Source: a virus
Taxonomy: Duplodnaviria > Heunggongvirae > Uroviricota > Caudoviricetes
Strand: one strand, 5' to 3'
DNA length: 19,220 nt
IMG/VR virus record: IMGVR_UViG_2778261559_000018
The position numbers and the translations under genes are program-made. Below the pieces are notes generated by a model that was not told where the DNA came from, did not search any database, and saw only the letters and a list, made by a program, of their open reading frames with translations. Shown piece after piece: positions 7 through 2,451 of the stretch. Each line of letters opens with the position of its first letter. Positions within the stretch are counted from its first letter, which is position 1.

Positions 7-1752
7 CTATATCAGATGGGCGTCTAAGTTACCAATTCTCGTCTGATGGCTACATACGGCGGTCAGTTTACGCTTACCAGCATTTTCAGCATTACGTCGT
101 TTCTGTTGCTCCTGATAATTCCGCTCTGCCTGCTCTTTTGCATCCTGCAAATCCTTCTGGCGTTTTTTCTCCTGAAGATCGTTAAGACGCTGCTGATCGT
201 ATTCAACCTGAGAAGATGATGCCGTCCAGGGGAGTCTTTTCGCCCGCGACACTTTCTCCTGTAAAGCGGTAATCTGTTCATCCAGCGAGTCTTCACGACC
301 AATATTCATGGCCGCATCCCAGAAACGACTCCACAAATCAGACAGATACTTCAGCGTACTGCCAAGCGCATTGAGGTTATTATCAATATCCGCAGTACGC
401 CGACCGGTTTCCTCTGCCAGTGCAGACATGGCTATCCGTGCAGCATCACTGGACCGTCCCTGATCCCCAAGGACACGTATCTGCTCAAGCTGAGTGGCAG
501 TAAGAAAATGCAGCTCATTGTCCAGAGCCTTCGCGGCATTTACAGGATCATCCTTCAGCCGCTTAAACTGATTTATGGTATCGCTGACCGACTGGCCAAC
601 CGATCGCTCCATCTGTGCGGCAGCTCTCGCCACCATACCGATATCGTTTCCACGAAATGCACCACTCCCCACCACCTGCGCCAGCGCACCGGCTGCAGCA
701 TGTTGCGTGATACCATTCCCGGAAATAGCACGACTGAGCGTCCACAGCTGCCCGGCAGTGACTCCGGCATAATGCCCCGTCAGCGACAACTGGCGGTTAA
801 ATTCTTCCCCCTCCTTCTGACCGTCATACCAGGCTTTACCCAGACCATAGACGGCCGCGGCAATACCGCCAATAACCCCGCCAAGCATCATGCCTTTCGG
901 TGACATCAGTGTGTCTATCCATCCGGCACGGTTAGCCAGCGTTATCCCGGATCCCCTCAGCACCCCTAAATTGCCGCGGGCCAGTTCACCTATCAGAACG
1001 CCTATCTCCTGGCGGGCTGCTGCACTTTTCAGACCCAGCGAATGCGTGGCTTTTCCTGCCTGCTCCATTTTGCGGATATACACTTCTGCAGCACTGCTTA
1101 CCCCCAGCTGGGCTGCCTTGGCACGAAGCAACTCAGAAGATGAAAGATTCTGGCGGGTTGCCTGCTCTTTAAGCTGACGGATAAACGCCACTTTCTGTCG
1201 GGTAGCCTCTTCCTCAGCCTGTGTAAGAACACGGGTTTTCGCAGTAACCTCAGAAATCAGCGCCAGATAATCCTGCTGACCAATCCCGCCACTGTTTCTG
1301 GCCTGTCGGATCTGCTGCTGAATACGCTGTAATTCCTGCAGCCCCGCACTGGCCTGTTTCACACTGTCAATCTGACGATAAAACGCAGCAGCCGCTTTAT
1401 CCTGAGCCTCCGCCAGAGCCATGGCCTGCGCCTGTTCCTCGCGCATTTTCTGGCTCAGCGCCTCCATGCGCTGGCGGGTTTTCTCCACCTCGCGGGCCAT
1501 GCGTTCATGAGCCTGTGCGTTCTTCTCCACCGTCTGCGCATGGACGGATGCGGCTGTTGCAGCCGAAGAAGTCGCCTGCGTTGTCTGCCGGGCGGCCTGA
1601 GTCTGACGCTCCATAAAACGCTGCATACGGGCAGACGACCGTTCTGCATCGCTGGCGGCACCATTCAGAAGGTTTTTGATACGGGGAATTTCATTTTTAA
1701 ACTCTGCCGCATCAATCCCCAAATCAATGACCAGGTTGGCTATCTGGTCCAT
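7..1752 (-). CDS. Tail tape measure protein (lambda gpH-like), 581 codons from ATG 1752; ORF ends at in-frame TAG at 7-9, possibly truncated or disrupted at the window edge
   Basis: Long minus-strand ORF directly downstream of the G/T chaperone genes; N-terminus MDQIANLVIDLGIDAAEF resembles the lambda H N-terminus as remembered; Ala/Gln/Arg-rich coiled-coil middle; GGAGG about 9 nt upstream of ATG 1752. Confidence 0.8.
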   Translation of the reverse strand: MDQIANLVIDLGIDAAEFKNEIPRIKNLLNGAASDAERSSARMQRFMERQTQAARQTTQATSSAATAASVHAQTVEKNAQAHERMAREVEKTRQRMEALSQKMREEQAQAMALAEAQDKAAAAFYRQIDSVKQASAGLQELQRIQQQIRQARNSGGIGQQDYLALISEVTAKTRVLTQAEEEATRQKVAFIRQLKEQATRQNLSSSELLRAKAAQLGVSSAAEVYIRKMEQAGKATHSLGLKSAAARQEIGVLIGELARGNLGVLRGSGITLANRAGWIDTLMSPKGMMLGGVIGGIAAAVYGLGKAWYDGQKEGEEFNRQLSLTGHYAGVTAGQLWTLSRAISGNGITQHAAAGALAQVVGSGAFRGNDIGMVARAAAQMERSVGQSVSDTINQFKRLKDDPVNAAKALDNELHFLTATQLEQIRVLGDQGRSSDAARIAMSALAEETGRRTADIDNNLNALGSTLKYLSDLWSRFWDAAMNIGREDSLDEQITALQEKVSRAKRLPWTASSSQVEYDQQRLNDLQEKKRQKDLQDAKEQAERNYQEQQKRRNAENAGKRKLTAVCSHQTRIGNLDAHLI

Positions 1753-2451
1753 AACGCACACCTCCGGAAATACCTTCCCCAAGATGCATCAGTTCTTCGT
1801 CCGTTCGCTCCGGTATCCCGTTCTCTTCCGGTAAAAGGCTGAAATCAGCCACCGCAGCATCACTGCTGCCGGACACCATTCTCACGATCAATGCCTTCAG
1901 CGAGGCAAACTGCGCATCCATCCACACATCACTGAAGCTCTGCATCCGGAAATAATCGCCCCACTCACCAAGCTCAGTGGCCGACATTTCCGACAGCATC
2001 CGCCGCCAGTCTGCCCGCCGGAACTCCCGGGCAAGCCGCATGACAAACTGCATTTCCCGCGTCAGGACTTTTCCGGCGTCAGCGCCTCATGCTCATCATC
2101 CCCGGCATTATCAATGGCCCCCATACCGCTCAGCGACAGAACCATCTCCGCCCCCGCCCCCAGGGCATCATACGACCATGTTGTAATAACGGATGCGCAA
2201 AGCGTCTCTACATCCTTAGACTGATCCGCATTCCACAGTGAGCGGGAAACCAGCCAGGCATTGATATCCATCCCCATCCGCAGAAAAGCAATCTGTCGTT
2301 CAGCCTCCGGCAGTTCTCCCTCCCCGGCATCAAACTTTGCCGTTCGCTGCTGAACAAACGCCAGATATTCAATTCTCTGCAGCCCGGACAGCTCACTGAG
2401 CACCACGGACTGTTTTTCATAATTAAACGTGTCCTGTTTCAGAAACATCAT
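1724..2451 (-). CDS. Tail assembly chaperone G-T fusion, predicted product of a programmed -1 ribosomal frameshift near the 3' end of G
   Basis: The -1 frame (ORF 1724..2053) is open across the last ~8 codons of G and runs to a stop that overlaps the tape-measure start; conserved G/GT arrangement of long-tailed phages. Confidence 0.5.
2062..2451 (-). CDS. Tail assembly chaperone (lambda gpG-like)
   Basis: 129-aa ORF between major tail gene and tape measure; sequence MMFLKQDTF...SELSGLQRIEYLA resembles lambda G; AGGTG upstream of ATG. Confidence 0.8.
   Translation of the reverse strand: MMFLKQDTFNYEKQSVVLSELSGLQRIEYLAFVQQRTAKFDAGEGELPEAERQIAFLRMGMDINAWLVSRSLWNADQSKDVETLCASVITTWSYDALGAGAEMVLSLSGMGAIDNAGDDEHEALTPEKS
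2068..2074 (-). other. Candidate -1 frameshift slippery heptamer G_GAA_AAG at the end of G
   Basis: Minus-strand sequence CCG GAA AAG TCC TGA; -1 frame reads GGA AAA GTC and stays open; non-canonical relative to lambda G_GGA_AAG. Confidence 0.4.

What the first reader, a model, noticed from the sequence alone, without database searches (positions are those of the whole stretch)
1724..2451. G/G-T frameshift arrangement with a non-canonical slippery sequence
The -1 frame is open across the last 8 codons of G and continues for about 110 codons, exactly the conserved G/GT arrangement. However, the only candidate heptamer in the overlap is G_GAA_AAG rather than lambda G_GGA_AAG, so the P-site re-pairing would be imperfect.
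Basis: partly seen in the sequence, partly recalled or inferred. Interest (0 to 1): 0.4.

Follow-up and report, generated by a model that had tools for sequence, protein, structure and literature searches.

The report
Phage tail chaperone G/GT frameshift site
This is the ordinary lambda-type tail-assembly chaperone gene pair (G and G-T) of a common E. coli prophage, and its "odd" slippery sequence G_GAA_AAG is the usual one in this gene family and is already annotated in phage N15.

Summary
On the minus strand, G (2451..2062, 129 aa, Pfam Phage_TAC_2) is overlapped by a -1 frame that is open from 2086 to 1724 (120 codons, Pfam Phage_tail_T). It lies between the major tail gene V and the tape-measure gene. 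The only slip-capable motif in the 8-codon overlap is G_GAA_AAG (2074..2068). The interpretation, a lambda-like G/GT -1 programmed frameshift with imperfect P-site re-pairing (GAA to GGA), is supported. The heptamer is not unusual for this family, though. In 187 related loci (114 distinct GT proteins, 13 clusters at 70% identity), G_GAA_AAG sits at the column homologous to lambda's G_GGA_AAG in 11 clusters, including N15, phi80, Gifsy-2 and Proteus/Providencia prophages. The N15 GenBank record already labels GGAAAAG as the slippery sequence. Lambda-type phages use G_GGA_AAG and Stx phages use A_AAA_AAG at the same column. Codon choice at the site is fixed (AAG 99/101, GAA 97/97, preceding base G 100/101), unlike elsewhere in G. 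I found no convincing downstream structure. An upstream GAGG is inconclusive. The DNA is 99-100% identical to phages mEp460, cdtI and Tritos and is present in about a third of complete E. coli genomes. Verdict: real, well understood, already known, low interest. Frameshift efficiency on this weaker heptamer is not measured in anything I could read.

The parts
2062..2451 (-). Gene G, the tail assembly chaperone. 129 aa, ATG at 2451, TGA at 2064-2062.
   Evidence: ORF and translation. Pfam PF06894 Phage_TAC_2, E 2.8e-40. Annotated as the gpG homolog in mEp460, Tritos, Ayreon and RefSeq E. coli.
2068..2074 (-). Slippery heptamer G_GAA_AAG. Frame-0 codons are GAA (Glu127) and AAG (Lys128). After a -1 slip the tRNAs face GGA and AAA, and the next codon read is GTC (Val).
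   Evidence: It is the only slip-capable motif in the overlap. It sits at the column homologous to lambda G_GGA_AAG and N15 GGAAAAG. It is invariant in all close relatives and dominant in 11 of 13 clusters at 70% identity. Codon choice is fixed at this site.
2062..2086 (-). The G/T overlap window. The -1 frame is open here while frame 0 is still G (8 -1-frame codons).
   Evidence: The -1 frame stop TGA is at 2089-2087 and the G stop at 2064-2062.
1724..2086 (-). T reading frame (-1 relative to G), 120 open codons with the stop at 1726-1724. It is expressed only as the C-terminal 114 residues of the GT fusion (predicted 242 aa: G residues 1-128 plus 114).
   Evidence: Pfam PF06223 Phage_tail_T, E 5.1e-15, residues 35-110. 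Homology to relatives starts directly after the heptamer Lys, upstream of the annotated ATG at 2053, and that ATG is not conserved. Open length is far beyond background.
2085..2088 (-). GAGG, a Shine-Dalgarno-like tetramer with 10 nt between it and the heptamer. A possible weak stimulator, unproven.
   Evidence: Also present at the same spacing in Gifsy-2 and the Ewingella relative, but absent in N15, phi80 and lambda types. Predicted anti-SD pairing is -5.6 kcal/mol, and 8.6% of all 8-mers in the region are as strong. Inconclusive.
2509..3252 (-). Upstream neighbour: major tail protein V homolog.
   Evidence: Pfam Phage_TTP_12, E 8e-67, plus Big_2. Coordinates mapped from the mEp460 annotation.
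7..1752 (-). Downstream neighbour: tape measure protein (gpH homolog), cut by the window end. The ATG at 1752 overlaps the end of T by 29 nt.
   Evidence: Pfam TMP_2, E 4.8e-50. Start mapped from the mEp460 and RefSeq annotations.
2471..2488 (-). GC-rich hairpin plus T-run between V and G (terminator-like). This is context, not part of the frameshift signal.
   Evidence: Found by the scan. Annotated as a rho-independent terminator in mEp460 and as a putative terminator in N15.

Best explanation
This is the tail-assembly chaperone locus of a cdtI/mEp460-type lambdoid prophage of E. coli.

- **Normal translation:** most ribosomes translate G to its stop and make the 129-aa chaperone gpG.
- **Frameshift:** a small fraction slip back one nucleotide on G_GAA_AAG (2074..2068, minus strand). 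At that point peptidyl-tRNA-Glu sits on GAA and tRNA-Lys on AAG.
- **Re-pairing:** tRNA-Lys (the single E. coli Lys tRNA, mnm5s2UUU) re-pairs perfectly with AAA. tRNA-Glu re-pairs with GGA through two Watson-Crick pairs flanking a middle U.G.
- **Function, by analogy with lambda:** the G part of both proteins coats the tape measure protein and the T part recruits the major tail protein, so a fixed low GT:G ratio is set by the slip frequency.

Shown here: the ORF geometry, the family memberships, the position and conservation of the heptamer, and the absence of a conserved independent start for T. Inferred: that slippage occurs, its frequency, and the roles of the two proteins.
For: - **Gene order and families:** V, G, T and tape measure in order, with Pfam hits PF16461, PF06894, PF06223 and PF06791.
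- **Frame:** the -1 frame is open for 120 codons, against a background maximum of 81 and median of 9.
- **Unique motif:** the heptamer is the only slip motif in the 8-codon overlap.
- **Same column across the family:** a slip heptamer ending in A_AAR occupies the same alignment column in every relative examined (187 loci, 114 distinct GT proteins). It is G_GAA_AAG in 11 of 13 clusters at 70% identity. Lambda types have G_GGA_AAG and Stx phages A_AAA_AAG.
- **Nucleotide-level constraint:** at the site Lys is AAG in 99/101 distinct G genes, whereas elsewhere in G 65% of Lys codons are AAA. Glu is GAA in 97/97, against 63% elsewhere. The preceding base is G in 100/101.
- **Junction homology:** GT alignments show an invariant Lys, then conserved T-frame residues immediately after it (K-[VAI]-x-x-x-E-x-x-F...LAREF.R.DWR). 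The Met of the annotated T start is replaced by Leu, Arg or His in other clades.
- **Existing annotation:** the N15 record marks GGAAAAG as the 'slippery sequence for -1 translational frameshift'. Gifsy-2 annotates its T as 'part of G+G' frameshift hybrid protein' and has an identical CCG GAA AAG TCC TGA.
- **Literature:** lambda G/GT biology and the 30:1 ratio, and G_GA-type heptamers listed as a known class, both in PMC5009743.
Against: - No experiment on this sequence, or on any G_GAA_AAG G/GT site, was found in the searchable library.
- In a reconstituted E. coli system, G GAA AAG gave mainly 0-frame product and was used as the 'less slippery' comparison to G GGA AAG (PMC6924986).
- In vivo, the A_AAG tetramer without a stimulator was barely above background, and reached 5.6% only with a strong pseudoknot (PMC4066793).
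- No significant downstream structure is present here (z -0.6 and -0.1). Substitutions in close relatives hit the predicted stems without compensation.
- The heptamer also occurs in-frame in another gene of the window, so it is not intrinsically diagnostic.
- GenBank and RefSeq records annotate G and T as two separate CDS, not a joined one.
Confidence: 0.88

Rival explanations
1. T is an independent gene. Ribosomes initiate, or re-initiate after terminating at the G stop, on the ATG at 2053 and make a free 109-aa T protein, as all database records annotate. No frameshift is needed.
For: An ATG lies 8 nt after the G stop. mEp460, Tritos, cdtI and RefSeq annotate a 330-nt T CDS starting there.
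Against: - The ATG is specific to this clade. The aligned residue is Leu, Arg or His in Gifsy-2, Proteus, Providencia, N15, phi80 and lambda types, where no start codon exists.
- T-frame homology extends upstream of the ATG to the heptamer Lys.
- The only purine-rich run before the ATG (GCGGGAA) abuts it with at most 2 nt spacing, so there is no usable Shine-Dalgarno (read directly).
- Strict nucleotide conservation of the heptamer is unexplained by this model.
- In lambda, T is made only as GT (PMC5009743).
Confidence: 0.05
2. The shift is a single-tRNA event. Only tRNA-Lys slips from AAG to AAA (an A_AAG tetramer or NNA_AAG hexamer mechanism), and the P-site tRNA-Glu does not need to re-pair. 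The GG is then conserved for other reasons.
For: - The only universally retained element across the family is A_AAR. The preceding codon can be GAA, GGA, GCA or AAA, and rare variants G_GCA_AAG, G_GCA_AAA and A_GAA_AAG exist.
- A_AAG is the most shift-prone tetramer in E. coli (PMC4066793).
- CGA_AAG-type sites are used naturally (PMC5009743).
Against: - Heptamer position 1 is G in 100/101 distinct genes, and positions 2-3 are GA in 97/101. That is far tighter than codon bias elsewhere in G and suggests the P-site tRNA's first and third positions matter.
- Tetramers alone were at background without a strong stimulator, and none is evident here.
Confidence: 0.25
3. The weak heptamer depends on a flanking stimulator in this clade. 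The GAGG 10 nt upstream pairs with the anti-Shine-Dalgarno of 16S rRNA, as in dnaX. Other clades would use a downstream hairpin or an adjacent stop codon.
For: - GAGG at identical spacing occurs in the window clade, Gifsy-2 and the Ewingella relative, although the following amino acid varies (A, V, D).
- N15/phi80-type relatives carry an invariant CGCCAG...CTGGCG stem 4 nt after the heptamer. Proteus and Providencia relatives have TAG directly after it.
- SD-like stimulators 6-17 nt upstream are an established class (PMC4066793).
Against: - The GAGG pairing is weak (-5.6 kcal/mol), and 8.6% of 8-mers in the region do as well.
- It arises from a conserved Glu codon in an acidic linker.
- Some relatives (Xenorhabdus L102, L189) have none of the three features.
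- The N15-type stem lies in dual-coding sequence, is invariant, and its one variable pair is often broken.
Confidence: 0.15
4. The frame change is made at the RNA level, by transcriptional slippage of RNA polymerase on the A run.
For: The site contains a run of four A residues.
Against: Four A residues are far shorter than the homopolymer runs known to support productive transcriptional slippage (established knowledge; review PMC5009743). The conserved in-frame register and the G at positions 1-2 are features of ribosomal slip sites.
Confidence: 0.01

Closest known systems
Bacteriophage lambda gpG / gpGT -1 programmed frameshift (Levin, Hendrix and Casjens 1993; Xu, Hendrix and Duda 2004, 2013, 2014; cited through PMC5009743)
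   Same: - Same Pfam families for G and T.
- Same position between V and H.
- -1 overlap at the end of G.
- Shift site at the homologous alignment column.
- No evident downstream stimulator.
- T without its own conserved start.
   Different: - Heptamer is G_GAA_AAG instead of G_GGA_AAG, so the P-site codon is Glu, not Gly, and re-pairing has a middle U.G.
- The overlap is 8 codons instead of 21.
- T is shorter (112 against 138 codons after the G stop).
- About 35% protein identity.
Phage N15 genes 14/15 (GenBank NC_001901, misc_feature 'slippery sequence for -1 translational frameshift')
   Same: Identical heptamer GGAAAAG in the same register and alignment column.
   Different: - About 35% protein identity.
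- N15 has five more G codons after the heptamer.
- N15 has a potential CGCCAGT/ACTGGCG stem 4 nt downstream that the window lacks.
Gifsy-2 STM1039 / STM1041.1n ('part of G+G' frameshift hybrid protein')
   Same: This is the nearest diverged relative (54% identity). It has the identical 15-nt CCG GAA AAG TCC TGA and an upstream GAGG at the same spacing.
   Different: A Salmonella prophage. Its T frame lacks the ATG that databases use as the T start in the window clade.
Phages mEp460, cdtI, Tritos and PhiR47_1, and prophages in 1847 of 5426 complete E. coli genomes
   Same: The same DNA at 98-100% identity, so this is the same element.
   Different: None of substance. Those records annotate G and T as separate CDS without a joined GT.
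G_GAN_NNN-type -1 shift sites (for example G_GA in insect-specific flaviviruses, dianthoviruses, umbraviruses and mesoniviruses) and NNA_AAG hexanucleotide sites (IS1222, Bacillus cdd), reviewed in PMC5009743
   Same: They work alike: the A-site tRNA re-pairs well and the P-site tRNA only partly.
   Different: These are unrelated genes and hosts, and they normally rely on strong downstream RNA stimulators. None is seen here.

Membership tests
Lambda-type tail assembly chaperone G/GT with -1 programmed ribosomal frameshift | Two ORFs located between the major tail protein gene and the tape measure gene | tested here: met
   The order is V (PF16461), G, T, tape measure (PF06791) on the minus strand.
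Lambda-type tail assembly chaperone G/GT with -1 programmed ribosomal frameshift | The upstream ORF is a gpG homolog | tested here: met
   PF06894 Phage_TAC_2, E 2.8e-40, covering residues 2-122. It aligns with lambda, N15, phi80 and Gifsy-2 G.
Lambda-type tail assembly chaperone G/GT with -1 programmed ribosomal frameshift | The downstream ORF is a gpT homolog lying in the -1 frame and overlapping the end of G | tested here: met
   PF06223 Phage_tail_T, E 5.1e-15. The frame arithmetic and the 8-codon overlap are verified.
Lambda-type tail assembly chaperone G/GT with -1 programmed ribosomal frameshift | A slippery sequence inside the overlap at the conserved position | tested here: met
   G_GAA_AAG sits at the column of lambda's G_GGA_AAG and is identical to the annotated N15 site. 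It is conserved across relatives with fixed codon choice.
Lambda-type tail assembly chaperone G/GT with -1 programmed ribosomal frameshift | The heptamer obeys the strict X_XXY_YYZ rule | tested here: not met
   GGA is not a homotriplet. This rule defines the canonical motif class, not the G/GT family. Most family members fail it in the same way.
Lambda-type tail assembly chaperone G/GT with -1 programmed ribosomal frameshift | T has no independent, conserved translation start | tested here: met
   The ATG at 2053 is clade-specific, and homology extends upstream of it. There is no properly spaced Shine-Dalgarno (sequence).
Lambda-type tail assembly chaperone G/GT with -1 programmed ribosomal frameshift | A GT fusion protein is actually produced at a low fixed ratio and is needed for tail assembly | not testable with these tools
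   This needs a reporter assay, western blot or MS, plus genetics. It is known for lambda (PMC5009743).
Stimulator-dependent bacterial -1 PRF signals (dnaX / IS3 / IS911 type) | A stable downstream hairpin or pseudoknot 5-9 nt after the motif | tested here: not met
   Folding of 48 and 83 nt downstream gives z -0.09 and -0.59 against dinucleotide shuffles. There are no Rfam hits. Uncompensated substitutions occur in close relatives.
Stimulator-dependent bacterial -1 PRF signals (dnaX / IS3 / IS911 type) | An upstream Shine-Dalgarno-like sequence at stimulatory spacing | tested here: inconclusive
   GAGG lies 10 nt upstream, at -5.6 kcal/mol, and is not exceptional for the region (8.6% of 8-mers as strong). 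It is conserved only in some clades.

The most novel reading that the evidence does not exclude
Most lambda-type G/GT loci, including this one, rely on G_GAA_AAG. Ribosome biochemists have used this heptamer as a poorly slippery comparison sequence, and its A_AAG core is near background in vivo without a stimulator. There are two possibilities.

- These phages may assemble tails with a GT:G ratio far below lambda's ~1:30.
- Alternatively, an unrecognised stimulator raises slippage. It may be lineage-specific: an SD-like GAGG here, a downstream stem in N15/phi80 types, an adjacent stop codon in Proteus/Providencia types, or the acidic nascent linker.
Probability: 0.15. Interest if true: 0.4.

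Novelty: already known. Interest (0 to 1): 0.1.

Why it matters
There is little new biology here. The locus is a textbook recoding site in a very common E. coli prophage.

- **Annotation:** RefSeq and GenBank list T as a free-standing gene from a non-conserved ATG and omit the 242-aa GT fusion for this widespread variant. Motif-based frameshift finders that demand X_XXY_YYZ will miss most members of the family.
- **A small open question:** how efficiently does G_GAA_AAG shift in vivo, and is the lambda 30:1 ratio general across the family?

Tried and rejected
- **Downstream stimulatory RNA structure.** Folding 48 and 83 nt after the heptamer gave energies no better than shuffles. A 70-nt scan in 15 relatives gave mixed z-scores, with none for the window clade. 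Rfam found nothing relevant. Rejected for this locus.
- **Upstream SD-like stimulator.** GAGG is present at dnaX-like spacing, but it is weak and not unusual for the region. Left as inconclusive.
- **Other shift sites in the overlap.** No other Y_YYZ or canonical heptamer exists there.
- **Independent T translation.** Rejected because the ATG is not conserved and homology extends upstream of it.
- **Heptamer rarity as evidence.** Rejected. GGAAAAG is over-represented in the window (10 against 3.2 expected). It occurs once more in frame, and a canonical G_GGA_AAG also occurs in frame in another gene.
- **Family-wide locus search with a 7-sequence G alignment.** It failed for lack of a conserved stretch. 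It was replaced by two clade alignments and single-protein scans.
- **Literature search.** I looked for a measured efficiency of G_GAA_AAG in a phage G/GT context. Nothing turned up in the held library, and Xu et al. 2004 is not held.
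Full report
**What is in the sequence**

All the genes concerned are on the minus strand.

- **G:** it runs from ATG 2451 to TGA 2064-2062 (129 aa). Its end reads, in frame 0, GAG GCG CTG ACG CCG GAA AAG TCC TGA.
- **The -1 frame:** it has its last stop (TGA) at 2089-2087 and is then open to the stop at 1726-1724. That is 120 codons, of which 8 overlap G and 112 follow the G stop.
- **The heptamer:** G_GAA_AAG lies at 2074..2068 with GAA and AAG as frame-0 codons. It is the only motif in the overlap on which any tRNA could re-pair after a -1 slip.

The open frame is not chance. In ten other genes of the same window, -1 frame open stretches have a median of 9 codons, a 95th percentile of 35 and a maximum of 81. 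That gives P of about 8e-5 for 120 open codons.

**What it is**

- G matches Pfam Phage_TAC_2, the lambda gpG family (E 3e-40).
- The -1 frame product matches Phage_tail_T (E 5e-15).
- The upstream gene is a lambda-type tail tube protein with a Big_2 domain.
- The downstream gene is a lambda-family tape measure protein.

The 821-nt region is 98-99.5% identical to phages mEp460, cdtI, Tritos, PhiR47_1 and others. It is 100% identical to prophages in E. coli chromosomes, and 1847 of 5426 complete E. coli genomes carry it. The window's structural module is collinear with phage cdtI from its left end at 98.6% identity. So this is the G/T pair of a very common lambdoid prophage.

**Is G_GAA_AAG the shift site, and is it unusual?**

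I extracted the G end, the -1 overlap and the motifs from three sources:

- annotated phages: lambda, N15, phi80, Gifsy-2, mEp213, mEp237, a Providencia phage, Stx phages and PhiR5_1/PhiR12_4;
- species-representative bacterial genomes;
- IMG/VR contigs.

Across the first 187 loci (114 distinct GT proteins), every locus has a heptamer ending in A_AAR at the same place. The heptamers found were:

| Heptamer | Where found |
|---|---|
| G_GAA_AAG | Dominant in 11 of 13 clusters at 70% identity: N15, phi80, mEp213, Gifsy-2, and Xenorhabdus, Proteus, Providencia, Citrobacter and Superficieibacter prophages |
| G_GGA_AAG | Lambda-type phages, PhiR5_1 and PhiR12_4 |
| A_AAA_AAG | Stx1 and Stx2 phages |
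| G_GCA_AAG, G_GCA_AAA, G_GGA_AAA, A_GAA_AAG | Single loci |

In a protein alignment of predicted GT fusions, the heptamer Lys is an invariant column. T-frame homology (K-[VAI]-x-x-x-E-x-x-F-...-LAREF-R-DWR) begins at the very next residue. The Met that databases use as the T start in this clade is Leu, Arg or His elsewhere.

Codon choice shows selection on the nucleotides themselves (101 distinct G genes):

| Position | At the heptamer | Elsewhere in G |
|---|---|---|
| Lys codon | AAG 99/101 | AAA 65% of Lys codons |
| Glu codon | GAA 97/97 | GAA 63% of Glu codons |
| Third base of preceding codon | G 100/101 | G 40-66%, depending on the codon family (Ala, Pro or Leu) |

The sequences are related, so these counts are not independent trials. 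They do hold across five clusters that share less than 50% identity.

Prior annotation agrees. The N15 GenBank record marks exactly GGAAAAG as the 'slippery sequence for -1 translational frameshift'. The Gifsy-2 record calls its T 'part of G+G' frameshift hybrid protein' and has the identical CCG GAA AAG TCC TGA.

It is not met.

**Mechanism**

- **Lys re-pairing (established knowledge):** E. coli has one tRNA-Lys for AAA and AAG, and AAG-to-AAA re-pairing is the most shift-prone A-site event in E. coli (PMC4066793; PMC5009743).
- **Glu re-pairing:** the P-site tRNA-Glu must go from GAA to GGA, keeping positions 1 and 3 and forming a U.G in the middle. This is stated for this very sequence in PMC6924986.
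- **Known class:** G_GA-type first halves are listed as a known intermediate between hexamer and heptamer sites (PMC5009743). The PRFect authors likewise found that most annotated tail-chaperone frameshifts lack the strict three-three motif and defined extra motif classes (PMC10885494). That GGAAAA would fall under their 'twofour' class is my inference from their naming rule.
- **Product:** the predicted product is G residues 1-128 followed by VLTREMQF..., 242 aa in total.
- **Function:** by analogy with lambda, G and the G part of GT bind the tape measure protein, and the T part recruits the major tail protein, at about 30:1 (PMC5009743). This functional step is inferred, not shown here.

**How well should it shift?**

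This is the one soft spot.

- In a purified system, G GAA AAG gave mainly 0-frame product and served as the 'less slippery' comparison.
- In vivo, A_AAG without stimulators was near background, and reached 5.6% with a strong pseudoknot.

I looked for stimulators.

- **Downstream folding:** no better than shuffled sequence (z -0.59 for 83 nt, -0.09 for 48 nt).
- **Close relatives:** they carry uncompensated substitutions in the predicted stems.
- **Rfam:** nothing relevant.
- **Upstream GAGG:** it lies 10 nt before the heptamer, as in dnaX. It recurs at the same spacing in Gifsy-2 and an Ewingella prophage. It is weak (-5.6 kcal/mol), and 8.6% of 8-mers in the region pair as well.
- **Other clades:** they show different candidate helpers. 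N15/phi80 types have an invariant CGCCAG...CTGGCG stem 4 nt downstream, and Proteus/Providencia types have a TAG stop directly after the heptamer. Some relatives have none.

I treat a stimulator as possible but unproven. The shift may simply be less frequent than in lambda.

**Rivals**

- **Independent translation of T** from ATG 2053 is what the databases annotate. It is contradicted by the non-conserved start, the missing Shine-Dalgarno spacing, the homology upstream of the ATG and the nucleotide-level conservation of the heptamer.
- **Single-tRNA-Lys slippage** is a reasonable sub-variant, since only A_AAR is universal. The near-fixed G at position 1 argues that the P-site tRNA matters.
- **Transcriptional slippage** on four A residues is implausible.

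**Comparison and novelty**

The locus meets every testable defining feature of the lambda G/GT family except the strict X_XXY_YYZ rule. That rule most family members also fail, and it does not define the family. The DNA itself is already in GenBank in several named phages, and the heptamer has been annotated as a slippery sequence in N15. I rate it already known, with low interest.

Two residual points have some value. One is the systematic mis-annotation of T as a free-standing CDS. The other is the frameshift efficiency of the family's majority heptamer, which nothing I could read reports.

Noticed in passing
L009 about 713-745, with the same place in L008, L006, L100 and L137-L189 (relatives, not the window): N15/phi80-type relatives have an invariant potential stem CGCCAG(Y)...(R)CTGGCG starting 4 nt after GGAAAAG. 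Lambda (canonical GGGAAAG) and the window clade lack it. The seventh pair is T-A or C-G in some relatives but mismatched in others, and the 5' arm lies in dual-coding sequence, so the conservation is uninformative.
   Followed up: partly
L007, L098, L099, L101 and L103-L107 (Providencia, Ewingella and Proteus prophages): In these relatives the heptamer is the last sense sequence of G. It is followed directly by the frame-0 stop TAG (G_GAA_AAG_TAG), a 'shifty stop' arrangement that could favour P-site slippage.
   Followed up: no
L271 and L273 (Stx2d and Stx1a phages); L154 (IMG/VR contig): Stx phages carry the dnaX-type A_AAA_AAG at the same alignment column. One contig has A_GAA_AAG, a one-substitution intermediate between G_GAA_AAG and A_AAA_AAG.
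   Followed up: partly
window 2471-2488 (-): A 7-bp all-GC hairpin followed by TTTTTT lies between the major tail gene V and G. It is annotated as a rho-independent terminator in mEp460 and as a putative terminator in N15. It would lower transcription into G, T and H relative to V.
   Followed up: partly
window 1833-1850 (-): GGCTGATTTCAGCC followed by TTTT lies inside the T reading frame. The mEp460 record annotates it as a rho-independent terminator. It was not picked up by the consensus scan here.
   Followed up: no
window 10966-10972 (-) and 4461-4467 (-): A second in-frame G_GAA_AAG lies in the 185-aa ORF 11283..10726, where the -1 frame stops after 8 codons. An in-frame canonical G_GGA_AAG lies in ORF 4526..4251. 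GGAAAAG occurs 10 times in the window against 3.2 expected. The heptamer alone is therefore not diagnostic and is evidently tolerated in other genes.
   Followed up: partly
window 1724-2053 (-); RefSeq WP_001161009.1, mEp460 YP_007112086.1: Public records annotate T as a free-standing 109-aa CDS from ATG 2053 and give no joined GT CDS. The ATG is not conserved in other clades, so the annotated protein is probably not the real product.
   Followed up: yes
L092 (JAEWTL010000010.1, 'Bacillota bacterium' MAG) and L095 (JAGTSE010000010.1, soil 'Proteobacteria' MAG): Metagenome-assembled genomes labelled as non-Escherichia carry a G gene 94-95% identical to this E. coli prophage gene. These are probably mis-binned or contaminant contigs.
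   Followed up: no
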